Shown here: positions 16,086-33,453 of the stretch, in pieces
Layout of the letters: each line of letters begins with the position of its first letter
Position numbering within the stretch: the first letter of the stretch is position 1
Origin: an uncultured Thermotogae bacterium
GTDB lineage: Bacteria > Bipolaricaulota > Bipolaricaulia > UBA7950 > UBA9294
Direction of reading: 5' to 3'
Assembly (NCBI GenBank): GCA_964568045.1
Contig: CAZMOL010000001.1
Span: forward strand, 2,044-55,813
Length of the DNA stretch: 53,770 nt
Program-made: the position numbers and the translations under genes
The notes under the pieces: model-generated
The model's database searches: none
What the model was told of the DNA's origin: nothing
What the model saw: the letters and a program-made list of their open reading frames with translations, nothing else

Positions 16086-16188
16086 AAGGTGCAAGCCACG
16101 CCTGCCTCGTTCTGCCCTGTGAGATCTGATGACTCACCTCGGGTTGGCTTCCTGTATCCGCTTGCGCTTCACTGGGTAGAGGGCCGCA

Positions 16189-17631: not shown

Positions 17632-17884
17632 TTAGATCTTGGCATGTGTGTCCACTCTTCTCCCTGTGATCGTCGATAAACGCCGATTGTAGCGCAGCAG
17701 GCCTTCAAAAGCAGGCCGGTCCTGGCCGGCAGGTGTGCACGTGTATGACTGCCGCTCTGTCTTCACCCAAGATCAACGGAGGACCCGATCTGGCTTGCTT
17801 TCTATTGGAGACGGAGAAGATGTCTGACTGCCGGATCAGGCTGGGGCGAGCGTGCCGCCGGCAGAGCGGTTTGAGAGAGAGGGA

Positions 17885-18082
17885 TCACCCGCGCGTGCGC
17901 TTGGCAATGACCGCGAGCCTTCCCAACCACACCACCGCGAGCGCGGTCCACGTGGCGCCGAAGATTGCGCGACCGACAGTGTCTTTGCTGAGGATCAGCC
18001 CCGCGAACGCGATGAGGGCGACTGTAAAGCAGACAACCGCTGCTGCGATAAGGACCCATCTCGATTTTAGTCGACCGGGCAT
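17885..18082 (-). CDS. hypothetical small membrane protein (2 TM)
   Basis: MPGRLKSRWVLIAAAVVCFTVALIAFAGLILSK...WTALAVVWLGRLAVIAKRTRG. ATG 18082 is preceded by AAGGAAG. No recognisable family. Confidence 0.3.
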   Translation of the reverse strand: MPGRLKSRWVLIAAAVVCFTVALIAFAGLILSKDTVGRAIFGATWTALAVVWLGRLAVIAKRTRG

Positions 18083-18249
18083 CGGTTCTTCCTTTGATCC
18101 AACCCGCGTTATCCTGCAACCTCCGGACATGATATGGCGCAGCAGATCAAGGTCAACGCTGCTTCTGGTGTCGCTTGGAACGTTGTGCGCTGCCGCACGC
18201 CACGGTACTCTAGCCCGTGACAAAGCAATCTGACTAGGGAGGAAGCCTC

Positions 18250-18999
18250 ATGTCAAATCCAGTGATCGATTGTCTGCTTAACCATCGCTCGATCCGCCGG
18301 TTTAAGTCCGATCCGGTTCCCGCTGAACTGCTTGACGAGATACTACGCGCCGGCACGCACACTGCCAGCGCGGGGAACCTCCAAGCGTACTCACTGGTTG
18401 TCATCGATGACCCCGAGCGGTTGGAAAAGATGACGTTTGGGGCACCGCTTGCGATCGTCGCCCTCGTCGATCTCTATCGCCTCAAGCGATGGTTTGAGCT
18501 CAACGACGCGCCGTTCTACTTCGATCAGGCGGTGAACGTGTTCATCGCCTACTGGGATGCGGTGATCGCCCTACAGAACATCGTCGTTGCCGCGGAGAGT
18601 TTTGGCCTCGGGACAGTCTACGTGGGACTGGTCCTCTCCAAGAATGTGCAGGAATGGCTGGAAGCGCCGGAGTACGTGTTTCCTGCCGGGTTGCTCTTCA
18701 TCGGTCATCCCGACGAATCGCCGGAGTTGCGGCCGCGCCTGCCTCTCGATGCGGTCGTCCATCGAAACAGCTACCACGTCCCGACCGACGAGGAGATCCG
18801 CGCGCACTTTCACGACAAGAACAAGCAATGGGGCGAACTTCCTCAGGCCAAGCGAGAGAAGCTGCGCGAGAAAGGGATTGAGAACTACGCCCAGTTCAAA
18901 ACCCTTGGCCACTACACGCCCGAGTTCATCCGCAGCGAAAGCGAGAAGGTCATCGAGAATCTCAAGCGGGCGGGTTTCAAGCTCGGGGACGCGATGTAG
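18250..18999 (+). CDS. nitroreductase family protein
   Basis: HRSIRRFK motif near the N-terminus, 249 aa, RBS GGAGGAAG. Confidence 0.8.
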   Translation: MSNPVIDCLLNHRSIRRFKSDPVPAELLDEILRAGTHTASAGNLQAYSLVVIDDPERLEKMTFGAPLAIVALVDLYRLKRWFELNDAPFYFDQAVNVFIAYWDAVIALQNIVVAAESFGLGTVYVGLVLSKNVQEWLEAPEYVFPAGLLFIGHPDESPELRPRLPLDAVVHRNSYHVPTDEEIRAHFHDKNKQWGELPQAKREKLREKGIENYAQFKTLGHYTPEFIRSESEKVIENLKRAGFKLGDAM

Positions 19000-19082
19000 G
19001 GTATCGATGGCTCAAGAAGAGGGTTTTGCTGCCGAGTGTCCCGATGCATCCGGAAGGCCGACGCACGATGCGAACAACTTCC
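18985..19082 (+). repeat. island repeat, degenerate copy E (overlaps nitroreductase 3' end)
   Basis: By-eye alignment. atgtagggtatcgatggctcaagaagagggttttgctgccgag aligns with the copy A core atggtgatcgtctgtctcagggaagagggcgttctgacc. The tail gaaggccgacgcacg...gaacaacttccctatccgccgagg aligns with the copy B tail. Confidence 0.35.
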
Positions 19083-19180
19083 CTATCCGCCGAGGTTAAA
19101 GTCGATCCGCGCTCCCGCGGCCGGGCAGATGCCAGGGCGAAGGCAGGTACTGCTGGATAATCCGGCCTCGCGGAGGCAGA
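19083..19180 (-). pseudogene. truncated relic of a paralogue of the 146-aa secreted protein gene at 29548..29988
   Basis: About 50 nt is near-identical to 29556..29605 (gtcga.ccgcgctcccgcggccgggc.gatgcc). The encoded tail ...GICPAAGARIDFNLGG compares with ...GIGPAAGARFDFDLSR. No signal peptide or N-terminal part is present. Confidence 0.4.
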
Positions 19181-19409
19181 AAGGCAGGGTATACGGCGCG
19201 CTTTCAAAAAGATGTCCCCGCAGCTCTGACTGCGAGGTCTGATCGGTGTTGATGTGGAGGATCAACCGGGTCGGAGAAGTAGAGGGGGAAGGCTCAATGA
19301 CGAGATGAACGTTCCTTGTGATCGACCTTCCTGCGGAGGTCGTTATGTGCGAAGAGTGAAACGGAGGCGCCTGACGCTTTTGGCTCGCCGCGGCCTCGAT
19401 GATTCCTGT

Positions 19410-19622
19410 CTAGCGCCGACGGCGTCCCTTGGGTCGGCCGCGTGAGGGCCGGCTCTTTTTCTTGTTGCCCTTTTTGGGCGGAGGCCGTTTGCTGGTGCAC
19501 TCGACGCAGTACACGGGGCGATCGGTCAAGGGCAGGAAGGGGAGTTCCTCGATCTTCTTCCCGCATTTTGCACACCTGAGATCGAAAACACGTACGTCGT
19601 GCATCTTCCGGCCAGAGGCCAT
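19410..19622 (-). CDS. small zinc-ribbon protein with polybasic tail
   Basis: MASGRKMHDVRVFDLRCAKCGKKIEELPFLPLTDRPVYCVECTSKRPPPKKGNKKKSRPSRGRPKGRRRR, with CxxC-x18-CxxC. ATG 19622 is preceded by GGAAGGAGAG. Confidence 0.55.
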   Translation of the reverse strand: MASGRKMHDVRVFDLRCAKCGKKIEELPFLPLTDRPVYCVECTSKRPPPKKGNKKKSRPSRGRPKGRRRR

Positions 19623-19820
19623 AGGCTCTCCTTCCAAAACCTTTCCACAGCACCCGTTGCTGCCTGTTGGGCCTGCAGGCATCCCCACAGTACCCGATGT
19701 GACGTGAAATTCACACCCACGGAACGCGGAAAGTGCCGATGTCTTCGTGAATATGGGTCAACTCAGGTCAGACGAGGCGGGGCGATCAGCGAGCTGGAGG
19801 ACGGCGGGTTCCTCGCTGCC

Positions 19821-19935
19821 GGCCTCGTTTGAAACGTGGTCGCCGCCTGCCTCAAGAAGGAAGGGATTCTGAACTGAGACAGCTCTCGAACAGGTGGCAC
19901 CAGCAATGACGATCTAACCCTGGCGGAGTCCCATG
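19821..19935 (+). repeat. island repeat, copy D
   Basis: ggcctcgtttgaaacgtggtcgccgcctgcctcaagaaggaagggattctgaactgagacagc aligns with the A/B/C cores. The tail ggcaccagcaatgacgatctaaccctggcggagtccc aligns with copy B tail agcaccaagaatgaagacctgaccaccgcagagaccc. Confidence 0.55.
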
Positions 19936-19942
19936 TGGTGAG

Positions 19943-20914
19943 TCAGCATTGAGCCTTCGGGATTTTGCTTAAGCCCTCGACTGCCGATGACATCAGGTCC
20001 TGGATCTCAAGCGGCTCGCCCTTGCTTGGTTCGCGCCGGAGCGACAGCGCGTTCTGGTCACACTTGGAGATGCACACCCCACAGCCCATGCAGCGCTCTT
20101 CATCCACCGTGACGACGCCCTCTGTCACCGTAAGCGCGTCGAACGGGCAGGCCTCGGCACAGTCACCGCAACCGACGCATCGTTCGCCGTCCGGTTCGCA
20201 CACGTATCCCGAAGACGCCAGCATCGGCGTCCCGTAACGCCACGCCTGCATCGCGCCACAACAGCACGAGCAGCAGTTGCAGATCGCGTAGAACCGCCCC
20301 AGCATCGCGTCCTTGAAGAAGGCGTGGTGCACGTGGCCTCGCTCGTGCTCGGCACGGAGAATCTCGACCGCCTCGTCCTGTGTAATCCAGTGGGACTTCA
20401 TTGGATGATGGTCAGCCACGAAGCTGGCAAACGGCTCCCCAACGACGAGGCATACATCGAGCGGCAGGCAGGGATTCTCTCGCACCGACCGACACGGGCA
20501 TTCCAGGGCCACGATGTGATCCGGCTCGCTCAACACGATGTCGCGGGCCGTGGCGTAGGGGATGATCTGCTCCAGGTTCCTCAGATCGATCTTAACATTC
20601 AACGTGACCAGCCGCTCCGCCGCCCCTGTCGGGACGACCTTGCCGTGGTACCGATCGGCGAAGCGCCGCTTCGTGTCTATTGGGTCTCCCCGAGAAGATC
20701 GCAGAAGAAGCCGTGACACCACGTTGACGATTGGTCGCAGGACCCACGGAAGCTCGCGCTCTCCCGTTCCCAGGCCGATGTACAGATACGGCCAGCGGCC
20801 GTACACATAGCCGTGAAGGAAGTCCAGCAACGAATACCCAACCGTTCGCCTCCCCTCACGCCAGAGTGCGCGGGTCGAGGCACGCACCAGTCCGTGCCGG
20901 CGTTGGTCGCTCAC
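19943..20914 (-). CDS. 4Fe-4S dicluster domain protein with extra Cys-rich motif
   Basis: C-terminal CVGCGDCAEACP and CMGCGVCISKC ferredoxin motifs. Upstream there is an unusual CNCCSCCC cluster and a CPC motif. 323 aa. Confidence 0.8.
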   Translation of the reverse strand: MSDQRRHGLVRASTRALWREGRRTVGYSLLDFLHGYVYGRWPYLYIGLGTGERELPWVLRPIVNVVSRLLLRSSRGDPIDTKRRFADRYHGKVVPTGAAERLVTLNVKIDLRNLEQIIPYATARDIVLSEPDHIVALECPCRSVRENPCLPLDVCLVVGEPFASFVADHHPMKSHWITQDEAVEILRAEHERGHVHHAFFKDAMLGRFYAICNCCSCCCGAMQAWRYGTPMLASSGYVCEPDGERCVGCGDCAEACPFDALTVTEGVVTVDEERCMGCGVCISKCDQNALSLRREPSKGEPLEIQDLMSSAVEGLSKIPKAQC

Positions 20915-20955
20915 AAAGCCCCCCAGAAAGAAGATGATTCAGACAGCTTACCTGG
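20900..20955 (+). repeat. island repeat, degenerate copy G (touches 5' end of the 4Fe-4S gene)
   Basis: cgttggtcgctcac...agaaagaagatgattcagacagct aligns by eye with copy D cgtggtcgccgcc...agaaggaagggattctgaactgagacagct. Confidence 0.3.
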
Positions 20956-21160
20956 CGGGGTGGGTGTCGGCAAAGCGTCGGGAATGCACGTGTGACAATG
21001 CAAGACGCAAAGGAGTTTCCCGGTAGCCGGCGCGAGACCGGGGACCGCAAGCAAAGTAGAGGAACTTGATTTCCTCTGTCCCTCGCACGGGGAAGGTACG
21101 GACAAGATCCTCAGGCACTCTGACTTTTCGCGAAACCCGACAAGAAACGAGGGATAGGTG

Positions 21161-21886
21161 CTATTTGCCGGAATTGCCGATTGCCCGAGCGAGCGCCGAT
21201 GCGTCCGTCTCGTATTTCCGTTTCCGTTCAAGATGTATCAGGCGCGTGAGAGCGACGGCAAACAACAGCGCGTAGTGGCACATGATCGAAGGCAGCGCAC
21301 CTCGCGCCGGTGGCACGAACCGCGACGTCAGTACCGCGAGAGCCACGAATGTCACTGTCCCTAAGAACACCTGAGCCAGTTGGCGCTGCCGGCGCGGGTC
21401 ACGGCAGGTCATCGCGCCGTACCCGGAGAACACGATCATCCCGACGAGCCCTAGACAGTAGAACGAGGAGTAGACGAGGAAGCGCGGTATGGCGTGGGTA
21501 TAGCGGGCGTAGACGGCGTTGCAGACCGATGCGGAGGCGAAGGATCGGTCGACCACGATCCACACGACGATGCCCGCCGCAGCGGCCAGCATTGCGTAGG
21601 CCGATACGGTGAACGTGCGCGATCTTGGGCGGAGGAGTTGTGCTATCAATAGCAGACCGAGCGCCGGAAGCCAAGTGACGATGACGAATGCCAGTCTCGG
21701 GGTGAATCCGGCTGCGGTGACATTGGCGCAGATCGCGACCTCGGCGATTTGGTACGCCGCCAGCAGCAGCAGGATGGCACTCACCGTGCGAACGATCCTT
21801 CGCTCCCCCGGCCCGCGGAGTGCCCAAACAGCAACAGCGATCTCGAATGCCGCCGTCGCGACGGCGAGAATCGGAGAGTAGTCCAT
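21161..21886 (-). CDS. hypothetical polytopic membrane protein (about 7 TM)
   Basis: Seven hydrophobic segments. Start set to ATG 21886 (MDYSPILAVA), preceded by GAGGGGGAAG. No family recognised. Confidence 0.6.
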   Translation of the reverse strand: MDYSPILAVATAAFEIAVAVWALRGPGERRIVRTVSAILLLLAAYQIAEVAICANVTAAGFTPRLAFVIVTWLPALGLLLIAQLLRPRSRTFTVSAYAMLAAAAGIVVWIVVDRSFASASVCNAVYARYTHAIPRFLVYSSFYCLGLVGMIVFSGYGAMTCRDPRRQRQLAQVFLGTVTFVALAVLTSRFVPPARGALPSIMCHYALLFAVALTRLIHLERKRKYETDASALARAIGNSGK

Positions 21887-22053
21887 CCAGCTTCCCCCTC
21901 TGGATACGTATACACAGGATATTCCGGGCCAGTCAACCCCAAGTGCTGAGTCCAAGGCTCTATGCCGGGAGGCTTGCTCGCTTTGCTTGCATTACACTGC
22001 GTCCTATGATGTAGCGACGCGCGAGCGGCATCGCGCGATAAGGGAGGGAGATC

Positions 22054-22425
22054 ATGGATTGGAGAGACGTCGCGGCGGCGGACGAGGTTCCGGAAGGCCG
22101 AATGATGAGACTGGACATCGAAGGTCGAGAGGTCACGGTTGCCAGAGTTGGCGCAGTGTTCTACGCGTTCGACGATCGCTGCCCCCACATGAATTCACCG
22201 CTGCATCTTGGATCCATTCAGGGCGGCCAAGTCATCTGCCCGCTTCACAAGGCGCGGTTCGATCTTGCCACAGGTAAACAAGTGACGGATCCGAAGATTC
22301 CCATTCCGAAGGCGCTCAAGATGGGCTCGATGATGGCCGGCATACGCACACACGACCTCCCGACGTACGAGGTGAAGACCGAAGGTGGGCGCGTGCTCAT
22401 CAACATGGACCGGCGCAAGACGTAG
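22054..22425 (+). CDS. Rieske [2Fe-2S] domain protein
   Basis: CPHMNSPL...CPLHKARF (CxH...CxxH), 123 aa, small soluble Rieske ferredoxin type. Confidence 0.85.
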   Translation: MDWRDVAAADEVPEGRMMRLDIEGREVTVARVGAVFYAFDDRCPHMNSPLHLGSIQGGQVICPLHKARFDLATGKQVTDPKIPIPKALKMGSMMAGIRTHDLPTYEVKTEGGRVLINMDRRKT

Positions 22426-22718
22426 GCTGAGCATCCGTTTTGTGGCTAGCTCGCGATTGAGTGGAAGAGAACTGCTTGCTTTGTCACTGCGGGCCAAGCG
22501 AAACGTTGAAGGGATAATTAACCCTGTGAAACGGCTATTCTTTGTGCACGGTGTCCATCACCTCAAGCGCAAAGCGGGCTGACACCGTGGGCGGGCCGCC
22601 GCCCATCTCCATTTTGGACTGCACGCTTCCACGGTCTCTTGAATGGGACACGGCAGCATGATCGGGGTTGAGGAGCTTGCGAGTTGTTCCGTCCTGTCGT
22701 ACGGAGGAACCGCTCGCT

Positions 22719-24248
22719 CTATGGTTCCGTCGTCACGAACTGCCGGCCGTCCTTCTTGCACAGGATCTGAACGACGTGCCTGCCGGAGGAGACCGCTGGA
22801 GGCAGGCCGCCGCCGGGCGTGGTCCACTGTCCGATCATGTAAAAGTCCTCGAGGCCGGGGAGCGTCTTGCTCATCTGCATCATGAGGTTCTTTCCGCTCG
22901 GCAGCCAGCCTTCGTACGAGCCGCGCCAGTTGCCGGTGTAGCGCTCCCATGTCATCGGCGTGGCCACGTCGCGCATTTCGACTTTCTCACGAATGCCGGG
23001 AATGCGCTGCTCGAGCGCCGCGATCGCGGCTTCGCAGGCCGCTTCCTTCTCCGCTCGGTACCGTTCGGGATCGTGGCTCAGCTCCTCCCAGCGGTCGTAG
23101 TCGCTGCCGATCATGACGACGAGCACGGACTTCCCCTCCGGTGCCAGATGCGGATCGAAGTTGTAGGCTTGCATCGTCAACCGATTGCGCACCTTCCCGT
23201 CGATCTCGATCGGTGGCGAAAGCGGGAAGCTGATGCCCCCGATGGTGGACGGCACGTCGTTCAGGGGATCGGCGATCCCGAGACCGATGTACAGAAGTGG
23301 TGGGAAGAGCTTCATGTTGTCGTAGTAGCCCTGGATCGTGTCGTTCACGTATCGTCCGTCGAGCATGTCGAAGATCGTCGTCCGGCCGTCGGCGGCGGAG
23401 ACGACGACGTCGGCGCGATGCTCGGTCCCGTCATCGAGTCGGAGGCCGACGGCACGATCGCCTTCAACGAGGACCTTTGACACCCGGGCCGAGTACTGGA
23501 CGGAGCCTCCAAGGTCGAGGAACCGCTTCTCGATGGCACGAGCAAACGGAATCGAGCCGCCCAACGGATACCCGGCCGCCTTCTTGTTCAACCAAGAGAG
23601 GGGCATGATCAGCATGAGCATCGGAAAATCCGGCGCATCGGCCGCTGCGGACGTGAAAGCCTCCCGCAAGAACCGGTTCCGAAGGTGCGAAGCGAACTCG
23701 CTGACCAAGCTCTTCCGCCACCGCATGAACTGCCTGGCAAAGGGAAGGATGCTCCAGGTCATCGCCAGCTTGTCGCGGAGCCCATAGAGTTCGGGGGCCT
23801 TCTCGACCGGGAGATCAAACCGCGTGAATTTCCGGATCGCCCTCGTGAAGGCTCGAATCGCCCGGGCATCCTCCGGGGCGAGCTTTAGAAGATGGCGTTC
23901 GAGTCGCTCGACGTCGCTGTAGAGGATGAGGGTTCGCCCGTCTTTTCCTTCGATGCGGAGGTACTCGTCGAGGTCGAGCATCGTTTGCCCTTGCACGGCG
24001 CCGACTTCCTTCCAGAGCTTGTGGTAGTTCACCCCGGGGGCCGAGCCGACGAGCCAGTGGATGCAGCCGTCGATCGTGTAACCTTTGCGATTCCACGCCG
24101 TGCAGACCCCACCGGGCGTAGTGTGCATCTCGAAGATCTTCGCGCGATAGCCGTTCATCTGGGCGTAGCAGCCGGCGGAGAGGCCCGCGATGCCGGCGCC
24201 GATGATGGCGATGGACTTGCCCGGTGTACGCTCTTCCACGTTCGTCAC
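22719..24248 (-). CDS. FAD-dependent oxidoreductase, phytoene desaturase (CrtI/CrtD)-like family
   Basis: N-terminal dinucleotide fold IAIIGAGIAGLSAG...E, about 500 aa, C-terminal GQWTTPGGGLP typical of the amine oxidase/CrtI superfamily. GTG start preceded by GGGAGGGGA. Confidence 0.85.
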   Translation of the reverse strand: MTNVEERTPGKSIAIIGAGIAGLSAGCYAQMNGYRAKIFEMHTTPGGVCTAWNRKGYTIDGCIHWLVGSAPGVNYHKLWKEVGAVQGQTMLDLDEYLRIEGKDGRTLILYSDVERLERHLLKLAPEDARAIRAFTRAIRKFTRFDLPVEKAPELYGLRDKLAMTWSILPFARQFMRWRKSLVSEFASHLRNRFLREAFTSAAADAPDFPMLMLIMPLSWLNKKAAGYPLGGSIPFARAIEKRFLDLGGSVQYSARVSKVLVEGDRAVGLRLDDGTEHRADVVVSAADGRTTIFDMLDGRYVNDTIQGYYDNMKLFPPLLYIGLGIADPLNDVPSTIGGISFPLSPPIEIDGKVRNRLTMQAYNFDPHLAPEGKSVLVVMIGSDYDRWEELSHDPERYRAEKEAACEAAIAALEQRIPGIREKVEMRDVATPMTWERYTGNWRGSYEGWLPSGKNLMMQMSKTLPGLEDFYMIGQWTTPGGGLPPAVSSGRHVVQILCKKDGRQFVTTEP

Positions 24249-24380
24249 GACAATCCCCTCCCTTGGAATCCGTTCACTCTAGCCGCTCTCAGGAGGGGCG
24301 TCAAGATGCGGCAAGGTCGGATGCCCTTATGTGTCATGCGCTCCCGTCTCCGTGCGAAATCCAATGGTAGACCTCGTAGA

Positions 24381-24490
24381 CCCAGGTTCGTCGGCCTCGT
24401 CCACAACATGGTGATCGTCTGTCTCAGGGAAGAGGGCGTTCTGACCTAAGCCTCTCAGGTCTTTGGTAGAGTACGAGAAGTACGTAGATT
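24381..24490 (+). repeat. island repeat, copy A
   Basis: cccaggttcgtcggcctcgtccacaacatggtgatcgtctgtctcagggaagagggcgttctgacctaagcctc. By hand count it matches copy C at 23 of the first 27 positions and about 74% over the next 19. Confidence 0.7.
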
Positions 24491-24699
24491 TTGATGCTCC
24501 AATGAAAGTCTTGGACTCAGCTTTTCACTTGTTGGGACCCGAGTGATGCGCCGTGGTATCGTTTCTGAAAGCGGTCACGCTCTCTTGGCTGCGCGTGGCC
24601 GCATGTGGCTGGTATGCTAGCAAGAAGATCAGGCTGTGCCCGCAGATACCCCGATGTTAGTATAAGTCACAACAGCTTCCATCATCTCTCGTACGCCAT

Positions 24700-26274
24700 A
24701 TGATGATGGGTGTATACCTCGTTGCCGCTAACATGCGCATCATGTATGATGGACGCACAATGCCGGATGATCGACAAGGCTCCTTCTTGTGTCTTTCTCT
24801 GTGGACGCTCTTCATGATCATCATGGTGTTCAGCGTCTCGATCGGCCTTCGATGCGTCGCTGACAACGGCACAGAAAGTACACCCAGCGATAGATTACCA
24901 AGTATCGTTGGAATCGTCGTTGTAATTCTTGCCACCGCTGCTTCCGGCTGGTACTTCGGTCGACCTGTCCACAAGGTGCCCTTCCTGCTCGGGATCGCTG
25001 CCTTCAGTGCAGCGTGTGGTATTGGGATCGGATGGAGCCCTGAGCCAACGTTTGCTGCTCTTGTCCCAGCGCTTGCTGCAGCATTTGGCGGTGCATTGGT
25101 CTTGGCGGGAAGCGCACGGGTTCAACTACACAAGACGCAGACAGGCGAAATCGCAAGCTACGCCTCGGCAGCATCGGGAATCCCTCTACTCGTTGGCATC
25201 TGCTTTGGGGCCTCCTTTTCTAGCCCCCTTCCGTGGAGCGACCCCGCGCGGTTGGCAGCGGTCATCGTGATTCTTGCGTTGGTGATTGCCGTTGGAATCC
25301 TAGTCGGCCGTATGACAGAGAACCCCCCTTTGAGCCTTGGTGCGGCCGCCTTCGGGGCCTTTGTTGGGATGGCGACCGGGCTTTCCCGTTACCCTGTTGT
25401 TGCGTATGTCGCCCCAGCCACACTGGCTCTGTTCACCGGTGTTGCATCGTACGCATTCACAGCGAAACCGCAGGAACGACGCAACATTGGCGGGATACTC
25501 TTGTGCTTCAGCGTCTTGCTCGTTGCCGGCCTCTTCCTCGGCGCAATCGTTCGCGTTGAGCTAGGCTGGGCGCAAGCCCCGTGGTTGATCTATGCGTTTT
25601 GTGCGCTCGTCCTAACGATTCTTGCCCTTGGAAGCACCGTTGGAGGCCTGAACCAGGATCACCTTAGTGCCCTGGGATTCGCGATGTTAGGCGGCGGCGT
25701 CGGACTGACCATCGGACTCAGCATCACGATAGTCACGCACATTGTCATTCCCGTCCTGCTCACGGTGTTTTCCGGGCTGGCGATCTATGTGTTCAGAGCG
25801 GATCGAGAAGATCGACCGACCTTCTATCGACTGATCGGAGTCTTCGCGGTGCTCGTTCTGCTTGGATCGTTTGTTGGGTATTCCCTCCGACAAGCGCGTC
25901 TTGTGCCTGTGTCATCGACCGTCGAAGTCGAAGGGCCGAGGAATGTGTCCATCTGGCTGGAAGGAAGTGAAACCGCGACGGCGATCTTGATCGACGTGCT
26001 TACTCCTGCGGGCAGTGTGCTGCGCATTGTCGAGCGTGTTGACGCGAGGGTCCTATATGAAGGGGTGCCTCTCCAAGGCGAACAGCTGTCATTCAGTGGG
26101 GAGAGCCTCGAAATCAGCTGGCCAGTTGCCGCCGGACACGATTCGCTCGTCGTCACGGGCTGGGATCGGATGGTGGAGCAGGCTGGCTCTTGGGCCGTGG
26201 TTGGCGACGGAGAGCCGATAGACACGTCAACGGCGGAGATTCGCGGCGGCCGGTTCGTCCTAGTCTATCCATGA
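24700..26274 (+). CDS. hypothetical polytopic membrane protein (about 12 TM) with C-terminal soluble domain
   Basis: 524 aa: long run of hydrophobic segments, then an approximately 130-aa non-hydrophobic C-terminus. The start is uncertain (ATGATGATG, weak RBS). Its stop lies 1 nt before the S8 protease start. Confidence 0.65.
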   Translation: MMMGVYLVAANMRIMYDGRTMPDDRQGSFLCLSLWTLFMIIMVFSVSIGLRCVADNGTESTPSDRLPSIVGIVVVILATAASGWYFGRPVHKVPFLLGIAAFSAACGIGIGWSPEPTFAALVPALAAAFGGALVLAGSARVQLHKTQTGEIASYASAASGIPLLVGICFGASFSSPLPWSDPARLAAVIVILALVIAVGILVGRMTENPPLSLGAAAFGAFVGMATGLSRYPVVAYVAPATLALFTGVASYAFTAKPQERRNIGGILLCFSVLLVAGLFLGAIVRVELGWAQAPWLIYAFCALVLTILALGSTVGGLNQDHLSALGFAMLGGGVGLTIGLSITIVTHIVIPVLLTVFSGLAIYVFRADREDRPTFYRLIGVFAVLVLLGSFVGYSLRQARLVPVSSTVEVEGPRNVSIWLEGSETATAILIDVLTPAGSVLRIVERVDARVLYEGVPLQGEQLSFSGESLEISWPVAAGHDSLVVTGWDRMVEQAGSWAVVGDGEPIDTSTAEIRGGRFVLVYP

Positions 26275-26275
26275 C

Positions 26276-29263
26276 ATGAACATCCATGGGAAGAGAACAT
26301 GTGCTCTTCGCCTAGTCCTGCTGCTTCTCGTCTTACTCACATCGACCATTGCGGGCCTCGGAGCAAACACCCCATCGATCTCGATCGGAATCAGCCTCGA
26401 TCTTCCCCAGATGCGAGGGCTACGCGGCACGGTAACGGCACACTGGGATGACTACTTGGCTCGTCTGGGAATTGCCAGTGACGCTAGCCATGTCCTGCCG
26501 CGCCTGTTCCTGGAATCAACAATGTGTCGTGGTCGCGTCAACCTTCGCGGACGCATCGAGGACCTCCTGACCTCACCTTCTCTCGCAGCGGGCTTCGACA
26601 TCTTGGGTGACAAGGCTAGTATCCACTTCAACACACGCTTCTCACTCGACTCCAGACAGCTGACTCTTGCTTCCCAATATGCTGACGTGATCCTTTCCCC
26701 GTTGCCGGATATGCAAGTAGGAGGCCGCCTGCATCTCGCTAACGCAGCGGTATCTCTGTCAGCCTTCCATGTAAGCGCGCAAACCTCAGTGGTCGACGTC
26801 GCCTACCGTGCTGAGTGGAATCAACTCCAGAACCTAAGCACTACCTACTCCGTTGAGATTCCCTCACTGAAACTGGGGCTGACGCAATCGATTCACGCGA
26901 CGAGAGCGGGCAGGGAGGTGATCACCTCCTGGTACCCCATCCTGCCGCCGGAGCTGGCACATTCGACGATATACGCAGACCTTCCCTCTGCTACTCAGCC
27001 GGCGATCGCCTTGCGCGAAAGCCGATCTGTAAAGCTTCGGGATTCGGAGTGCACAGTCTGTGGCGCAACAACTCCGCAGGCCGGCTCCGCAGACTATACC
27101 GTCGATTTTGGCGAGGTCATGGCCGGCGATACGGCATACACGGGCATTACCCTGAACTGCGATAGGCACGTCTTTTGCTGGCTGGATGAAGTGACCGTGT
27201 GGCCTCGTTCGCCGTTTGCGATTACCTATGCTCCGGTCGGTCTCATCATTCGGTTCGGAAGACAGCGTGACATCGAGCTTGACTTCGCACCAACGACAGC
27301 AGGCCGCTTCGACGGGACGATGACGATCCGATACTGCTTTGCAACCTGGCGTGACCGTGACGACGAGGTGTATGCCGATGAGATTGGAGCAGTCGAAGGG
27401 TACTACTCGTACCAATGTACTACGGTGACGCTTGCTCTCACTGGCGTTGCCCTGGCAAAACCGGAAGCGCGAGCGACGTACTCGCCAGACAAGCCAATCT
27501 GCGGGCAAGATGTGCAATTCGACGGCTCAGATTCCTTCGATCCGAACCCCGAAGGAGTGATCACGACCTACGAGTGGGATTTCGGAGACGGAACAACATC
27601 GTCGGAAGTGCGTCCCGTCCATCGCTACAATCGCTCGGGAACGTACCGCGTTCGACTCACCGTGTGGAACAACCGCGAAATGGTCTCCGATCCGTACGTG
27701 ATCGACGTCGATGTAGCACCGGATCTCGTCGAAGCAGCAGCGGTTGCCGGTGCCGCGGCCGCTGCGGGACTTGCCACGCACACCCTTGCGTTGGCTCCCC
27801 CGCTTCTTGCTGCTGCCGTGCCGGGATCTGTCCTCGCCGTCGCCTCAATCCTCCACGAACTCGGTTCTGTCAGATTTCCCATCGATCAGCTGATCCTGCG
27901 GTTCCCACGTTCCTGGGACCAAGCAGATGTCCAACAACTCATCGAACGAAACATACCGGGCGGCCGCGTCATTGGATACTTCTCGACGCTGCATACCTTC
28001 CTTATTCAACTGCCGGTCGAGGCCGACTCCGCCTCGCAAGCCGCCGCCGAGCTAGATGCGATCAGAGAACGTCTTGCCAAGGTTCTTCCGTACGGAGCGC
28101 AACTTAGTAAGAACTACGTCGGGCTCTTCGAGGGGCTTGTGCAGCCAGCATATTCAGGAAGCTCATGCGATCTCGAGTCTTTGGCTGCCGATCTTCGCTT
28201 GGCGTATGAAACCGTCCGGGCCCCGGAAGCCTGGCGGCGAATCAGCGATGTTGATGTGCGGCTCAAGCCGGTACGGATCGCCGTTATCGACTCGGGAATC
28301 TACGCCGATCATGAGGAGTTCGTCATTCCGCTTCGAGGCCGCAGTTACGTCATAGAGGAGGATGGGGCGCTCCAGCCATGGTACGAAGACAGCGGCGGTC
28401 ACGGAACGCAGGTCAGCGGGATCATTGGTGCAGAGAACGGCAAAGGACGAATGAACGGGATGCTTTCAGGCACTGCCGGTCACTACGAGATGCAGGTCTA
28501 TCGAGTGATCGGCGATATGTTCTCGGTGTGGGATTGCTTCCGCATTGCTGTCAGTTCGGCGGAAGACGAACTGGATGCGTGGAAAACCGCCGTGGAAACC
28601 GGAGCACGCCGCAAGTCGGTTGTCGTAAACATCAGCCTCGGTTGGGACCTTGACACGTTCCCAGACAACGAAAGAGTCCTCGCAAGGAACACGTTCCTCG
28701 ACCTGTTCGAGAGCTGTCCGAAGACACTGTTCGTGACGTCAGCAGGAAACGGCGATATGCCGGAAGACCTCTCGCGCAGCATCGGCAAGCAGATTGCAAT
28801 CGGCGGCAACCTTCATGCTCCCGGGGGAATCGCGGCCACCAACAACCTGACCGTCGCGGCCACTAACTCGGCGGGGAGCGAGCTGGTATCTTGGTCCAAC
28901 TACGGGTCCGCCGTCGATATCGCCGCGCCGGGGAAGGATGTCTACACGACCGATTGTGACGGAAGCTACGTATGGCGTGTCGAGGGGACTTCGTATGCTG
29001 CCGCCATGGTCTCGGGGGTAGCGGCAGCCGTCCTCGCCATCGATCCTAGGCTTTCACCCGCGGAAGTAAAGGACATACTGACCGGTTCGCCGACGCGCGT
29101 TTCGGCCCCGGACGGAAGGATGATTCCCGTGCTCGACTTTGCCGACGCGGTGCGTCGAGCAATAGAGAGTCGCCAGGAGCGGAATCGAAAAACTCTCTGG
29201 TGGTCAGCAGGTGCGGGACTCGGCATTCTCGCGTTGGGGCTCCTCGTACTTCGCCCATTTTAG
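26276..29263 (+). CDS. membrane-anchored PKD-domain subtilisin-like (S8) serine protease
   Basis: Signal peptide; PKD motif YEWDFGDGTTS...HRYNRSGTYRVRLTVWN; internal Ala-rich hydrophobic stretch. S8 triad contexts IAVIDSGI (Asp), GHGTQVSGIIGA (His) and GTSYAAAMVSGVAA (Ser). C-terminal TM segment. Confidence 0.85.
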   Translation: MNIHGKRTCALRLVLLLLVLLTSTIAGLGANTPSISIGISLDLPQMRGLRGTVTAHWDDYLARLGIASDASHVLPRLFLESTMCRGRVNLRGRIEDLLTSPSLAAGFDILGDKASIHFNTRFSLDSRQLTLASQYADVILSPLPDMQVGGRLHLANAAVSLSAFHVSAQTSVVDVAYRAEWNQLQNLSTTYSVEIPSLKLGLTQSIHATRAGREVITSWYPILPPELAHSTIYADLPSATQPAIALRESRSVKLRDSECTVCGATTPQAGSADYTVDFGEVMAGDTAYTGITLNCDRHVFCWLDEVTVWPRSPFAITYAPVGLIIRFGRQRDIELDFAPTTAGRFDGTMTIRYCFATWRDRDDEVYADEIGAVEGYYSYQCTTVTLALTGVALAKPEARATYSPDKPICGQDVQFDGSDSFDPNPEGVITTYEWDFGDGTTSSEVRPVHRYNRSGTYRVRLTVWNNREMVSDPYVIDVDVAPDLVEAAAVAGAAAAAGLATHTLALAPPLLAAAVPGSVLAVASILHELGSVRFPIDQLILRFPRSWDQADVQQLIERNIPGGRVIGYFSTLHTFLIQLPVEADSASQAAAELDAIRERLAKVLPYGAQLSKNYVGLFEGLVQPAYSGSSCDLESLAADLRLAYETVRAPEAWRRISDVDVRLKPVRIAVIDSGIYADHEEFVIPLRGRSYVIEEDGALQPWYEDSGGHGTQVSGIIGAENGKGRMNGMLSGTAGHYEMQVYRVIGDMFSVWDCFRIAVSSAEDELDAWKTAVETGARRKSVVVNISLGWDLDTFPDNERVLARNTFLDLFESCPKTLFVTSAGNGDMPEDLSRSIGKQIAIGGNLHAPGGIAATNNLTVAATNSAGSELVSWSNYGSAVDIAAPGKDVYTTDCDGSYVWRVEGTSYAAAMVSGVAAAVLAIDPRLSPAEVKDILTGSPTRVSAPDGRMIPVLDFADAVRRAIESRQERNRKTLWWSAGAGLGILALGLLVLRPF

Positions 29264-29420
29264 AGTGATTTCGGTGGAAATTGAGGGGTATCTCTGAAAG
29301 CGCGTGCCGTTTCTGATGGGTGTCTCTCGATTTAACTTCAAGGTAGCCTTTTTGCCATCCTGCATTTGAATCCGGTATGGCGAAGACATCTCTTCTTCAA
29401 GGCGCTTCAACTTCTTGACT

Positions 29421-29547
29421 ACCTAGCCTCGTGCACAACGTGGTGACCGTGTGTTTCGAAGAGTAAGGGGTTCTGGACTGAGGTGGCTAGAATGAGATAG
29501 CACCAAGAATGAAGACCTGACCACCGCAGAGACCCGAACTGCTCCCT
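29421..29547 (+). repeat. island repeat, copy B
   Basis: agcctcgtgcacaacgtggtgaccgtgtgtttcgaagagtaaggggttctggactgaggtggc matches copy A at about 80% over the 35-nt core by hand count. A tail shared with copies D and E follows. Confidence 0.7.
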
Positions 29548-29988
29548 TTATCTACTCAGGTCGAAGTCGAACCGCGCTCCCGCGGCCGGGCCGATGCCGG
29601 TCGGGCTGACGTCCGGGGAGATGGTAACCCCGAGCTCTCCGAAGGCCGTGAACGGCGTGTCGCCGATCGGAACCTCTATCCCCACCAGGGCGAAGAAGGC
29701 GTGCGCGACGATGTCACCAGGAAGAAAGGCGAGCCCCACCCCCAGCCCGGCGAGCGACCGAAGCGTCAACGGACCGAGTTCCAATTGCCCAGGATAAACC
29801 TTGGCGGAAGCCACGAGCGGCCCGGCACCGGACAGGCCGACCTCCACTGCGAACCTCTGAAACAGTGTGAGTTGAACGGACACCGCGGTCGGTACTCTCC
29901 CCACGATCCCAAGCTCCAGCACTTGGGCCGCAACCCCCACCGCGACGATCCCAATCAGTGCGATGGCTACCACAACGTGCCTGCGCAT
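29548..29988 (-). CDS. hypothetical secreted Gly/Ala/Val-rich protein (beta-rich)
   Basis: 146 aa with N-terminal signal-like MRRHVVVAIALIGIVAVGVAA and alternating hydrophobic pattern. Flanked by repeat copies B and C. A truncated paralogue lies at 19083..19180. Confidence 0.55.
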   Translation of the reverse strand: MRRHVVVAIALIGIVAVGVAAQVLELGIVGRVPTAVSVQLTLFQRFAVEVGLSGAGPLVASAKVYPGQLELGPLTLRSLAGLGVGLAFLPGDIVAHAFFALVGIEVPIGDTPFTAFGELGVTISPDVSPTGIGPAAGARFDFDLSR

Positions 29989-30123
29989 GACGTTTCCCTC
30001 CCTTTATCGTGCCTGTCTCGTGTCCCTTCAGCAAGGCATGTCTTTCCTTGTTTGAATCAAGCGCGACATCATGATACATGGAGTTTATCCACGAAGAAGA
30101 CCGAGGGCGAAGAAACCTGACTG

Positions 30124-30235
30124 CCCCAGGCTCGTGGGGCTTGTCCACAACGTGGGGAGCGTGTGTGTCATGGAGGAAGAGACTCTGGGCTGAGGCTCTT
30201 ACCAGCTTGGTTGGCTACAAGAAAGACGGCGCCCT
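30124..30235 (+). repeat. island repeat, copy C
   Basis: ccccaggctcgtggggcttgtccacaacgtggggagcgtgtgtgtcatggaggaagagactctgggctgaggctc, same orientation as A and B. Confidence 0.7.
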
Positions 30236-30290
30236 GCTGTTGTGATGCGAGGCTTGACGGGACACGGTAGAAGGGTCCCCAATGTTCTAC

Positions 30291-30620
30291 TTAGATGGAC
30301 GGATTGTGACTACGGATGAATCTGAGAGCCGACTGTAGGCCACCTCTGATTCTTGCTTGCATATCTGCTTCTGGATGCCACGCTCCGTGCTTGTGGATGA
30401 GAAGGTTTCTCGTCTTCCGGAAGGAGTGTAATTCACCCCTTTCTTGATCCGAAATTGTGCCTAGTACCCATGCCATGTCTATCAGATTGAATAGACTCAA
30501 CAGAGGATGTGGCCGGTCGCCTTCAGTACTTAGGTCATCGATCTTACGCCTACGCAGCATTCGCTCGTCTTGTTGAGGTGGTTGGCCAACGATCAGATCA
30601 ACTAGGACTCGTTCTACCAA
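30291..30620 (-). CDS. small HEPN-like protein (RNxxxH motif); true start may be upstream (to 30752)
   Basis: FRKTRNLLIHKHG; R-N-L-L-I-H is encoded at 30393..30410. It is predicted all-alpha by composition. It lies immediately downstream of the channel gene, with AAGGAGG at 30759..30765. TTG 30620 is the first canonical start, but the frame stays open back to 30764. Confidence 0.6.
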   Translation of the reverse strand: MVERVLVDLIVGQPPQQDERMLRRRKIDDLSTEGDRPHPLLSLFNLIDMAWVLGTISDQERGELHSFRKTRNLLIHKHGAWHPEADMQARIRGGLQSALRFIRSHNPSI

Positions 30621-30781
30621 GACCTGAGCATGAGCCGCTCCTTCTATATACTTCTTCTCTTTTAGAGCCTTTTCGATTGTCGATCTTGACCAATATCTGA
30701 TTACTCCAACTTTTTCTTGAGCCTGGCCTTCATCACAGATGTGCTTTGATATAACAGGCCTCCTTTAAGAGCCAGTGTGGA

Positions 30782-32458: not shown

Positions 32459-32905
32459 GGTCCGAAGCCCTCCTTCCTTCTATTCATAGACTGTCTTGTC
32501 CAAGGGTAGTCATCTCGTAAGTCCTAACATCTGCGGTGGTATCGTGTCAAGTTGTCTGTTCGTAAATCCCAGTGACACAATCTCTATTTCCAACCGGACC
32601 AGCCTGTTGAATGCCTTACTCCAGCAACTTCAACCTCCCAAGTGACCTTTCAGAACGTTGTCCCGCACGCTGACAGCCACACGCTGGTCGAGGCGGAGGC
32701 GCTGGTGCCGGTGGCTTCAAGTGTTACTTCGACGGTGACCGCTCCGCCACTGGGGCAGTAGAGGCTGTAGCTCCTGGTCCGGGTCAGTGTTAGGACAAAT
32801 ACGTACGAAACAAGACCCTCTACTCCTCCTAAACTCCTCAAACGCCAGAACGGTCTGGTTGCCAGACTCCGGGCAGCGTGTAAGATGTAGTCAAGGAGGT
32901 GGAGG

Positions 32906-33343
32906 ATGGATAGAACACTTACGGGATGGCATGGAGTGGTGTTGGCATTGATGGTATTGGCAGTGGTTGGGTCTTGTGCGGTCGCCGCCGCAGAATCCGG
33001 CCGCTTCTACTCGGTGGTGTATGACTCTTCCGGCAGCCGGGATACTGGGGTTGTCGTCACAAATGCGAGCGACAGAGATACTTCCTATACCCTAGAGCTG
33101 TATGATTCCTTGGGGAGTTCCCTCGTTGCGGTGACCGAGTCGCTTGCCCCTTTTGCGTCCAACTGGCACGACTTGACTGAGACGATTGGCGAACTGGGCG
33201 AAGGTGTCGATTGGTCCCTTGCGTGGGGCCTGTGCATCGTGCGGCCGCTGATCTATGCCACGGATCTCCTGATCGTCTCAGTGGAGGTGTACGTGGAGAA
33301 GAATCTGGTAAGCGTGTACCAGGTTGAGGCCTCCCACTACTGA
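32906..33343 (+). CDS. hypothetical secreted protein
   Basis: 145 aa with a signal-peptide-like N-terminus (VVLALMVLAVVGSCAVAAAES). RBS AGGAGGTGGAGG. No family recognised. Confidence 0.5.
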   Translation: MDRTLTGWHGVVLALMVLAVVGSCAVAAAESGRFYSVVYDSSGSRDTGVVVTNASDRDTSYTLELYDSLGSSLVAVTESLAPFASNWHDLTETIGELGEGVDWSLAWGLCIVRPLIYATDLLIVSVEVYVEKNLVSVYQVEASHY

Positions 33344-33453
33344 ATGCTTCCTTGAGAGTCATAGTGTCTTCGCGCTTGTCGCGAGGAAACTACATCGGAT
33401 AAGACGTCCGGATGAGACCGGGACTGCTTGGTCCTTTGGCCGCTCAGCTGCTC

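What the first reader, a model, noticed from the sequence alone, without database searches (positions are those of the whole stretch)
18985..30235. Family of same-orientation 70-125 nt repeats that partition about 11 kb into gene cassettes
Seen in sequence: there are three clear copies, A (24381..24490), B (29421..29547) and C (30124..30235). There is one good copy, D (19821..19935), and at least two degenerate ones, E (18985..19082) and G (20900..20955). Further possible copies lie near 17735..17775 and 22440..22510. All are in the same orientation. The core reads GGCCTCGT(C/G)CACAAC(A/G)TGGTGA(T/C)CGT(C/G)TGT(C/T)TC..GAAGAG..GTTCTG(A/G)(A/C)CTGAG. Hand alignment gives 23/27 identities for the first part of A versus C and about 80% for the 35-nt core of A versus B. 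B, D and E also share a tail (..GCACCA(A/G)(G/C)AATGA(A/C)GA(C/T)CT(G/A)ACC..). Every copy sits at a gene boundary, so the repeats delimit these units: relic + zinc-ribbon gene; 4Fe-4S gene; 7TM + Rieske; CrtI-like oxidoreductase; membrane protein + S8 protease; 146-aa secreted protein; HEPN + channel. In one frame the copies read as a decayed peptide tail ending in a stop. A gives PRFVGLVHNMVIVCLREEGVLT*, C gives PRLVGLVHNVGSVCVMEEETLG*, B gives LVHNVVTVCFEE*GVLD*, and D gives GLV*NVVAACLKKEGILN*. Inference: these could be duplicated 3' ends of a target or mobile-element gene left by serial insertions at one hotspot, possibly with a weak resemblance to the C-terminal tail of IS5-type DDE transposases. 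Alternatively they could be a structured intergenic RNA/DNA element. Either way, the region behaves like a cassette array without a visible recombinase.
Basis: partly seen in the sequence, partly recalled or inferred. Interest (0 to 1): 0.7.

Follow-up and report, generated by a model that had tools for sequence, protein, structure and literature searches.

The report
Gene-end relics separating swappable gene modules
Four same-direction repeats in this window are dead copies of the last part of a metallo-beta-lactamase-type gene plus about 60 bases after it, and they mark the joints of a chromosomal hotspot where related uncultured bacteria carry different gene modules, with no recombination enzyme in sight.

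Summary
Four copies are real: D 19751-19945, A 24304-24520, B 29355-29542 and C 30046-30232, all on the + strand (nhmmer E about 1e-20; 0 expected by chance). E, G as given, 17735 and 22440 are not significant.

The repeats are not attC hairpins, an RNA or an IS5 transposase tail. They are relics of the 3' end of a metallo-beta-lactamase (MBL)-fold hydrolase gene. Each holds the last 20-90 codons (consensus ...FKALRLLDYPRLVGLVHNVVTVCLKEEGILD*) and a conserved non-coding tail (...CACCAAGAATGAAGAYCTGACC).

More than 25 further copies lie on about 20 MAG and metagenome contigs of related bacteria, several of them provably the same locus. The flanks there are shared (CrtI-like gene, S8 protease, a small right-flank gene). 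The modules between repeats differ: toxin-antitoxin pairs, restriction-modification, Abi, ThsB-TIR, kinases, channels.

The left end of the repeat is ragged and the right end is sharp: more than 12 unrelated sequences start at the same nucleotide. Copies are mosaics. No integrase was found in the window (Pfam on most called ORFs) or among the cargo ORFs checked on the array contigs.

Best reading (about 0.45): scars of repeated site-specific insertion at the end of the MBL gene, still used as recombination points.

The parts
19751..19945 (+). Repeat copy D. It holds the MBL 3' relic (about 22 codons, in-frame stop at 19833-19835, terminal stop at 19875-19877) and the tail (19898-19920). It sits at the right end of the Zn-ribbon unit.
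   Evidence: nhmmer E 1.8e-34; pattern match at 19824; translation
24304..24520 (+). Repeat copy A. The relic reads ...PRFVGLVHNMVIVCLREEGVLT* with its stop at 24447-24449, and the tail is diverged. It begins where homology to L005 and L029 next to the CrtI-like gene ends (24341-24346).
   Evidence: nhmmer E 3.8e-30; tblastn against MBL proteins E 2e-6
29355..29542 (+). Repeat copy B. The relic has two in-frame stops and a 10-nt deletion; the terminal stop is at 29479-29481. It carries the canonical tail CACCAAGAATGAAGACCTGACC at 29501-29522.
   Evidence: nhmmer E 4.4e-45
30046..30232 (+). Repeat copy C. The relic reads ...PRLVGLVHNVGSVCVMEEETLG* with its stop at 30191-30193, and the tail is diverged. 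Three independent metagenome contigs end inside it.
   Evidence: nhmmer E 2.1e-32
21065..21127 (+). Short relic of the body of the MBL gene (residues 268-291 of P0013). The orthologous contig L011 keeps residues 268-338 and a tail fragment.
   Evidence: tblastn E 7e-6 with the reconstructed C-terminus; L011 1735-1941 E 3e-12
18985..19082 (+).
   Evidence: shuffle fraction 0.29; not found by nhmmer
19071..19133 (-). Relic of the 3' end of a paralogue of the 146-aa gene. It matches 29535-29598, directly after the tail of B.
   Evidence: the repeat finder D2, 84%; blastn 80%
19394..19920 (.). Zn-ribbon unit (small Zn-ribbon gene on the - strand, its upstream region and repeat D). The same discrete block occurs in three different contexts.
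   Evidence: L005 6093-6612 at 85%, L015 1643-2165 at 90%
19943..24248 (.). Block between D and A: 4Fe-4S protein (-), membrane protein (-), Rieske protein (+) and CrtI-like FAD oxidoreductase (-). Only the CrtI-like gene is conserved in the relatives L005, L006, L015 and L029.
   Evidence: Pfam; synteny
24700..29263 (+). Module between A and B: a 524-aa protein with no family match, and a 995-aa PKD + subtilase S8 protein.
   Evidence: Pfam; padloc subtilase; the S8 end + B is conserved in L016
29548..29988 (-). Module between B and C: a 146-aa protein with no family match. It is also found after a repeat on L009.
30291..32458 (-). Last module: a 109-aa protein (no family match, so 'HEPN' is not verified) and a 558-aa pentapeptide-repeat + ion-channel protein. 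The segment is low in GC (0.49-0.52, against about 0.59 elsewhere).
   Evidence: Pfam; composition
32558..32817 (-). Conserved right flank of the variable region, carrying a small gene that ends ...SVWLSACGTTF*. It is shared by L016, L013, L005 and L012.
   Evidence: blastn; alignment A2; L012 ORF 2110-2580

Best explanation
WHAT IT IS (shown). Each repeat is a non-functional copy of the 3' end of a metallo-beta-lactamase-fold hydrolase gene. It holds the last 20-90 codons and about 55-60 nt of downstream non-coding sequence that ends in a conserved motif, CACCAAGAATGAAGAYCTGACC. The copies sit in one hypervariable chromosomal locus of a group of related uncultured bacteria. They separate gene modules that differ from strain to strain, and all copies seen point the same way within each array.

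HOW IT WORKS (inferred). The end of the MBL gene and its downstream tail served as an attachment region for site-specific insertion of foreign DNA. Repeated insertions, by tandem accretion, duplicated that region. The recombinase genes and the MBL gene itself later decayed or were never resident. This left modules separated by att-like scars.

The scars still act as recombination points. Exchange and gene conversion inside them re-sort left and right modules between genomes, so the locus behaves like a cassette array. Any recombinase involved acts in trans or has been lost.
For: ORIGIN
- 18-21 copies share an open consensus frame...FKALRLLDYPRLVGLVHNVVTVCLKEEGILD*.
- Only that frame shows coding-type divergence. 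Codon-position entropy is 0.53/0.56/0.78. 27 of 66 distinct variants are synonymous against 25% expected, while the other five frames sit near expectation.
- phmmer with the 63-aa ORF P0006 hits the C-termini of P0011 (E 6.7e-12), P0013 (4.3e-7), P0014, P0017 and P0020.
- P0013 is a 361-aa Lactamase_B protein (PF00753, 1.1e-11).
- A longer relic of the gene body lies at L011 1735-1941 and window 21065-21127.

HOTSPOT
- The same flanks carry different cargo in the window and in L016, L013, L005, L012, L009, L015 and L029.
- The cargo is typical island content: Phd/PIN, HicB, RelE, AbiE, type IIG R-M, Dcm+Vsr, ThsB-TIR, HNH, SLOG and Schlafen.
- The last window module has low GC.

SITE-SPECIFIC COMPONENT
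- The right end is sharp: more than 12 unrelated sequences begin within a few nt of ...GACC.
- The tail motif is as conserved as the coding part.
- The tail also occurs alone at module joints (L008 4300, L008 8030, L012 6623).

RECOMBINATION IN THE REPEATS
- Mosaic copies have breakpoints inside the repeat, three of five near the stop codon.
- Tail variants travel with the right-hand module, for example the ABC-F module in L008, L012c, L016a and L029.
- Left parts travel with the left-hand module, for example the Zn-ribbon unit.

PRECEDENT
- Tandem accretion of decayed elements at a gene's 3' end is described in PMC5704250 and PMC4057263.
Against: - No tyrosine or serine recombinase was found in the window or among the cargo ORFs checked on the array contigs (and precomputed Pfam). 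The only transposases seen are one IS110 and one IS1380-type DDE.
- No intact MBL gene with this C-terminus exists in the lineage. Only ORFs of 98 aa or less were found among 5.8 billion proteins.
- The left end of the repeat is ragged (relic starts from residue about 1 to about 72 of the last 91), not a fixed identity segment.
- Breakpoints are not all at one position (columns 25-28, 93-111, 102-104 and a patch at 77-115).
- Arrays parse as flank-(repeat-module)n-flank, with no repeat next to the conserved right flank. Simple Campbell-type accretion predicts one there.
- Some modules are only 0.5-0.8 kb, too small to have been autonomous.
Confidence: 0.45

Rival explanations
1. There is no dedicated recombinase. 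Fragments of donor chromosomes of the form [part of the MBL 3' end + tail + whatever lay downstream] were imported by transformation or transduction. They were fixed by one homologous crossover (in the right flank or in a resident repeat) and one illegitimate join (homology-facilitated illegitimate recombination). Later homologous exchange and gene conversion between repeats shuffled the modules.
For: The ragged left ends and truncated cargo fit this: the 146-aa relic at 19071-19133, the truncated PIN copy after L005a, and the 60-nt stub of the ABC-F module after L016a. Breakpoints and a conversion patch lie at various positions. No repeat lies next to the right flank. No recombinase was found. 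Synonymous-biased divergence implies that the copies came from functional genes in different donors.
Against: This model does not explain why more than 12 unrelated modules start at the same nucleotide after the tail. That precise junction still needs a site-specific step in the donors. Copies within one genome are only 67-77% identical, which is poor substrate for RecA. No donor with an intact MBL gene + tail was found.
Confidence: 0.2
2. The repeats are right-end fragments of an unknown transposon or one-ended gene-capture element. In that element the MBL gene is the last gene and the tail is the active terminus, ISCR/IS91-like in logic. The outer end is fixed and fused to arbitrary DNA, and the inner end is variably truncated.
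For: The anatomy fits: a gene 3' end, then a short non-coding stretch, then a sharp terminus fused to diverse DNA, with ragged truncation on the other side. Solo tails exist, and one is inverted (L008 8030). The tail motif is strongly conserved.
Against: No HUH, DDE or other transposase is associated with the repeats, and the parent protein is an ordinary MBL hydrolase. Intact homologues on L022 and L025 are not inside recognisable elements and lack the tail. Every array that can be placed lies in the same locus and one orientation, not dispersed. There are no hits in the viral, plasmid or phage collections.
Confidence: 0.15
3. The repeats are integron attC sites, and the array is a CALIN (a cluster of attC sites lacking an integrase).
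For: The array logic and cargo are similar: same-orientation sites between small modules, toxin-antitoxin and defence genes, and no integrase nearby.
Against: There is no imperfect-palindrome hairpin on either strand (z-scores -1.1 to +1.2). The consensus fold of 21 copies is -1.45 kcal/mol with no covariation. No R''/R' (RYYYAAC...GTTRRRY) pair sits at the ends (read directly). The sequence is a gene relic conserved at 70-90% across genomes, unlike attC. No IntI was found.
Confidence: 0.03
4. The repeats are a structured non-coding RNA, or a regulatory element such as a terminator, promoter or insulator, placed between operons.
For: The location is intergenic and the non-coding tail is conserved.
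Against: There is no Rfam match at gathering score or at E<=1. There is no conserved structure. No promoter-like or terminator-like site falls in any copy, and counts equal the shuffles. The copies have no fixed relation to neighbouring gene orientation.
Confidence: 0.03
5. The repeats are decayed 3' ends of an IS5-type DDE transposase gene.
Against: Exhaustive phmmer of the relic peptide against 1.84 billion representatives returns MBL-fold proteins and short ORFs and no transposase. The word-index searches return only short ORFs.
Confidence: 0.01

Closest known systems
Tandem accretion of integrative elements and their decayed derivatives (CIMEs) at the 3' end of a gene, e.g. ICESt1/ICESt3 at fda in Streptococcus thermophilus, or islands at tRNA 3' ends (reviewed in PMC5704250)
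   Same: Direct repeats derived from the 3' end of a target gene, all in one orientation, separate modules of foreign DNA. Most modules lack integration genes. The composition differs between strains at one locus.
   Different: No integrase and no intact target gene is seen here. The left edge of the repeat is ragged rather than a fixed identity segment. There is no terminal repeat next to the right flank. Some modules are only 0.5-0.8 kb. The target (an MBL-fold gene) and the host lineage are, to my knowledge, new.
PAISt of Streptomyces turgidiscabies (modular excision at att copies at the 3' end of bacA; PMC4057263)
   Same: Several copies of a site at the 3' end of a protein-coding gene divide an island into modules that can move separately.
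   Different: PAISt uses an 8-bp palindrome and a known integrase. Here the repeat is about 150-200 nt of gene relic plus tail, and no recombinase is known.
Integron cassette arrays / CALINs
   Same: Same-orientation sites lie between small promoter-poor modules rich in toxin-antitoxin and defence genes. Left and right halves of a site travel with different neighbours, as if the crossover were inside the site.
   Different: The sites are not structured attC hairpins. They are pseudogene fragments conserved in sequence. Genes lie on both strands, and there is no IntI or attI.
ISCR (IS91-like) common regions in complex class 1 integrons (from my own knowledge; not checked in a paper here)
   Same: The unit is the 3' end of a gene plus a short non-coding stretch ending in a precise terminus fused to many different sequences. 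The opposite side is variably truncated.
   Different: The gene here is an MBL-fold hydrolase, not a rolling-circle transposase. No HUH enzyme was found.

Membership tests
Tandem accretion / CIME array at a gene 3' end | Direct repeats that derive from the 3' end of the target gene flank each module | tested here: met
   The relic peptide matches MBL C-termini. Four copies lie on the + strand in the window, and L005, L012 and L016 each carry three same-strand copies.
Tandem accretion / CIME array at a gene 3' end | An intact (restored) target gene at the proximal end of the array | tested here: not met
   Only relics were found. The longest is L011 1735-1941 (residues 268-338). No ORF longer than 98 aa with this C-terminus exists among 5.8 billion proteins.
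Tandem accretion / CIME array at a gene 3' end | A tyrosine or serine site-specific recombinase in at least some resident or related elements | tested here: not met
   Pfam on the window ORFs and on cargo ORFs of the loci found none (precomputed Pfam). The sampling consists of fragmentary contigs, and not every ORF was scanned.
Tandem accretion / CIME array at a gene 3' end | A fixed crossover position / identity segment shared by all att copies | tested here: inconclusive
   The right edge is sharp. The left edge is ragged. Breakpoints cluster near the stop codon in 3 of 5 cases but also occur elsewhere.
Tandem accretion / CIME array at a gene 3' end | Excision or integration of modules as circles | not testable with these tools
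   This needs PCR or long reads on the source samples.
Integron attC / CALIN | The single-stranded site folds into an imperfect hairpin (R''-L''/L'-R') with extrahelical bases | tested here: not met
   DNA folds of both strands of four copies give z-scores of -1.07 to +1.19. The RNAalifold consensus of 21 copies is -1.45 kcal/mol.
Integron attC / CALIN | Terminal core sites RYYYAAC ... GTTRRRY | tested here: not met
   Read directly from the alignments. The 3' end is ...CTGACC, and there is no GTTRRRY at the right boundary.
Integron attC / CALIN | An IntI integrase with attI/Pc (a complete integron), or its absence (a CALIN) | tested here: inconclusive
   There is no integrase in 53.8 kb. The rest of the genome was not available.
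IS5-family DDE transposase relic | The peptide is homologous to the DDE_Tnp_1 C-terminus | tested here: not met
   There is no transposase among the phmmer hits. The hits are Lactamase_B proteins.
Known RNA family (Rfam) | A covariance-model match | tested here: not met
   There were 0 matches at gathering score for the whole window and 0 at E<=1 for 17500-33500.

The most novel reading that the evidence does not exclude
The roughly 150-nt unit (MBL relic + tail), or the 25-nt tail alone, may be the working site of an undescribed cassette-type gene-capture system in an uncultured lineage. A recombinase or nicking enzyme encoded elsewhere would join arbitrary DNA precisely at ...GACC and exchange modules by crossovers near the relic's stop codon. 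This would be an integron-like platform whose site is a sequence-conserved pseudogene fragment rather than a folded attC.
Probability: 0.15. Interest if true: 0.75.

Novelty: new variant of a known kind. Interest (0 to 1): 0.45.

Why it matters
It also documents, across many environmental strains, a hotspot in which toxin-antitoxin, restriction and other defence-type modules are swapped between fixed flanks.

Two results would make it more important. One is a recombinase that recognises the tail. The other is a demonstration that none is needed. Either would add a way of building cassette arrays outside integrons in a poorly known bacterial group, and would provide a sequence tag (the tail motif) for finding such hotspots in metagenomes.

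Tried and rejected
1. attC-like or other hairpin. Single-sequence DNA folds of both strands and the consensus fold of 21 copies show no structure. An apparent inverted repeat between the upstream TCTTCAAGG block and the tail, seen by eye, did not survive the consensus fold.
2. Rfam, at gathering score and at E<=1: no match. No tRNA or tmRNA.
3. Reverse-strand small gene (a HicA-like ORF upstream of hicB on L005, or the 68-aa ORF at 29204-29410). The reverse frames are open but show no synonymous excess and no conserved start.
4. The near-palindrome CACAACGTGGTG as a recombinase core. It is explained by the conserved V-H-N-V-V codons of intact homologues.
5. A single fixed crossover site. Three breakpoints fall near the stop codon but others do not.
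6. Target-site duplications around the Zn-ribbon unit: none seen.
7. A search for the parent gene by word index returned only short ORFs. The exhaustive phmmer search was needed.
8. Viral contigs (two patterns), plasmids and phages: no copy.
9. Promoter and terminator scan: nothing in the repeats.
10. NCBIfam naming of the MBL protein and of the window cargo: none. PADLOC on the window cargo gave only a generic subtilase hit.
11. Intact but distant MBL homologues (L022, L025) have no repeat array downstream.
Full report
1. OBSERVATION

The repeat finder on 15000-33000 returns one four-member direct-repeat family at 19824, 24396, 29428 and 30140, all on the + strand and 70-77% identical to copy B over 56 nt. 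A profile built from the four scores them at E 9e-21 to 1e-19, and the next best site in the window is E 2.2. Two degenerate patterns each match exactly these four places, with none in 100 shuffles.

With a model built later from 18 copies the extents are D 19751-19945, A 24304-24520, B 29355-29542 and C 30046-30232. All are intergenic. E has only contextual support: like B, it is followed by the 3' end of a 146-aa gene (19071-19133 against 29535-29598).

2. NOT A STRUCTURED ELEMENT

- DNA folds of both strands of the four copies are no more stable than shuffles (z-scores -1.07 to +1.19).
- The consensus fold of 21 copies is -1.45 kcal/mol with a covariation term of -0.07.
- Rfam gives nothing at gathering score for the window or at E<=1 for 17.5-33.5 kb.
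- There are no tRNAs.
- No promoter-like or terminator-like site falls in a copy.

This removes the attC and RNA readings.

3. RELATIVES

A degenerate pattern found true homologues on two MAG contigs. L005 is titled as a Thermotogae MAG and has three copies. L006 is titled as a Bipolaricaulota MAG and has one copy. A looser pattern found nine metagenome contigs. Protein look-ups added more.

In total more than 25 distinct copies lie on about 20 contigs. L005, L012 and L016 each carry three copies on one strand. The contigs belong to relatives of the window organism. The CrtI-like gene is 70-90% identical at the DNA level in L006, L005, L015 and L029. Several contigs (L001-L004, L010) are the window sequence itself. 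The phylum labels are record titles only and disagree with each other, so I do not rely on them.

4. WHAT THE REPEAT IS

The consensus of the copies is open in one frame, reading ...FKALRLLDYPRLVGLVHNVVTVCLKEEGILD*. Individual copies carry stops (B, D, L005a, L006, L008, L014), so they are not expressed genes.

Divergence among copies nevertheless has a coding signature in that frame only:
- Codon-position entropy is 0.53/0.56/0.78.
- 27 of 66 distinct variants are synonymous against 25% expected, about 3 sd above by my own binomial estimate. The other five frames lie at 0.22-0.33 against 0.22-0.30 expected.

Word-index searches found only ORFs of 38-98 aa called on such repeats. One of them, P0006 (63 aa), was run by phmmer against 1.84 billion representatives. 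It hit the C-termini of larger proteins: P0011 (246 aa, E 6.7e-12), P0013 (361 aa, 4.3e-7), P0014, P0017 and P0020. P0013 is a Lactamase_B (PF00753) protein (E 1.1e-11), and its last 60 residues align with the relic. The parent is therefore a metallo-beta-lactamase-fold hydrolase gene, not an IS5 transposase.

A longer relic of the body of that gene (residues 268-338) sits on L011. L011 is 91% identical to window 19332-21124. A shorter piece (residues 268-291) is at window 21065-21127. No intact close orthologue was found. Distant intact homologues (L022, L025) have no array.

5. ANATOMY

- Left edge: ragged. The relic starts anywhere from residue about 1 to about 72 of the last 91 codons, depending on the copy.
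- Right edge: sharp. About 35 nt after the stop lies a conserved non-coding motif, CACCAAGAATGAAGAYCTGACC, as well conserved as the coding part. Immediately after it more than 12 unrelated sequences begin.
- Solo tails: the motif also occurs alone, without the MBL relic, at module joints (L008 4300 +, L008 8030 -, L012 6623 -).
- IS110: on L015 an IS110-family transposase gene starts about 45 nt past the tail.
- Copies A and C have diverged tails.

6. THE LOCUS IS A HOTSPOT

The same flanks hold different cargo.

Right of the repeat that follows the S8 protease:
- The window has the 146-aa gene, copy C, a 109-aa gene and a channel gene, then a conserved right-flank block (32558-32817).
- L016 has a second repeat, a 440-aa gene and two MscS genes, a third repeat and a kinase operon, then the same right-flank block.

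Next to the CrtI-like gene, homology among three genomes stops at window 24341-24346:
- The window continues with copy A.
- L029 continues with 188 nt, a repeat and an ABC-F / HNH / ThsB-TIR module.
- L005 continues with TetR, an ABC transporter, Phd/PIN and three repeats.

The Zn-ribbon unit (19394-19920) recurs as the same block in three contexts.

Cargo elsewhere includes type IIG R-M, Dcm + Vsr + HATPase, AbiEi/AbiEii, RHH-PIN, RelE, SLOG, Schlafen and PLD-like genes. The window's last module has GC of 0.49-0.52 against about 0.59 elsewhere. Assemblies often break in or near the repeats.

7. RECOMBINATION INSIDE THE REPEATS

Copies are mosaics:
- The right part, including tail variants, travels with the right-hand module. 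For example, CGACAATGAAGATATGACCGTG goes with the ABC-F module in L008, L012c, L016a and L029, whose left neighbours all differ.
- The left part travels with the left-hand module, as in the Zn-ribbon and PIN units.
- Informative-site analysis puts breakpoints at alignment columns 93-111, 102-104 and 115-122 (near the stop codon), but also at columns 25-28, with a conversion patch at 77-115.

8. RECOMBINASES

Pfam on most greedily called ORFs of the window found none. A few smaller ORFs, such as 53185-53718, were not scanned. None was found among the cargo ORFs checked on the loci either. The exceptions are one IS110 and one IS1380-type DDE transposase. The repeat is absent from the viral, plasmid and phage collections.

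9. INTERPRETATION

Origin and hotspot behaviour are shown. The mechanism is inferred.

The closest known process is tandem accretion at the 3' end of a gene, with decay of the elements to modules that keep their att sites (PMC5704250; modular PAISt at bacA, PMC4057263). The precise right junction with many unrelated sequences argues for a site-specific step.

Several features do not fit the textbook version: the ragged left edge, the scattered breakpoints, the lack of a repeat next to the right flank, the tiny modules, and the absence of an integrase or an intact target gene. These leave room for two rivals:
- import of donor fragments by homologous plus illegitimate recombination;
- an ISCR-like one-ended capture element whose active end is the tail.

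I give these about 0.45, 0.20 and 0.15 respectively. The remainder goes to the minor rivals already argued against (attC/CALIN, structured or regulatory RNA, IS5 tail) and to anything not considered.

10. VERDICT

The transposase and structured-element alternatives are rejected. I rate it a new variant of a known kind, of moderate interest.

Noticed in passing
L015 422-1582 (-), next to the repeat at 1627-1806 (-): An IS110-family transposase gene (DEDD_Tnp_IS110 + Transposase_20) starts about 45 nt beyond the tail, which is altered from ...GACCTGACC to ...GACCTCGTACC. The tail may be an IS110 target, much as some IS1111 elements target attC.
   Followed up: partly
L008 4300-4326 (+), L008 8004-8030 (-), L012 6597-6623 (-): Solo copies of the 25-nt tail motif occur without any MBL relic. 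One of them is in inverted orientation. Two of them (L008 4300, L012 6623) share the same downstream sequence, CCCTGAGCTCCGCGG.
   Followed up: partly
L005 4795-5038 and 5305-5552: The 3' half of a PIN toxin gene is duplicated on either side of repeat L005a. The second copy starts, truncated, directly after the tail.
   Followed up: partly
L016 460-658 and 686-831: Two repeat copies lie almost back to back. They are separated only by a stub of about 60 nt from the start of the ABC-F module seen on L008, L012 and L029, which suggests a module deleted in place.
   Followed up: partly
window 32558-32841 (-), also L012 2110-2580, L016 7605-7850, L013 3465-3670, L005 7637-7802: A small conserved gene ending ...SVWLSACGTTF* marks the right border of the variable region in five genomes. 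Its function is unknown.
   Followed up: partly
window 30000-33000: GC falls to 0.49-0.52 (about 0.59 elsewhere) over a 109-aa gene with no family match and a 558-aa pentapeptide-repeat + potassium-channel-type protein. The segment is probably recently acquired.
   Followed up: partly
window 15306 and about 16113; L030, L031, L032: Three independent contigs that are 93-94% identical to the window carry an extra 118 nt at window position 15306, with identity dropping to 86% beyond it. All three end about 110-130 nt after the Peptidase_M90 gene, which suggests another strain-variable boundary upstream of the MatE gene.
   Followed up: no
L014 3447-9736: After the repeat lies a module of Dcm methylase, a 993-aa HATPase + HEF_HK protein, a Response_reg_2 protein and a Vsr-like endonuclease. 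It looks like a methylation-linked defence or repair system.
   Followed up: no
L029 1213-4514: In a strain whose CrtI-like gene is 90% identical to the window's, the DNA after the repeat encodes ABC-F, HNH and a ThsB-type TIR protein, where the window has the 524-aa + S8 protease module.
   Followed up: partly
window 19083-19265: A decayed paralogue of the 146-aa gene (29548-29988) lies next to the doubtful copy E. This indicates an old duplication or second acquisition of that module.
   Followed up: partly
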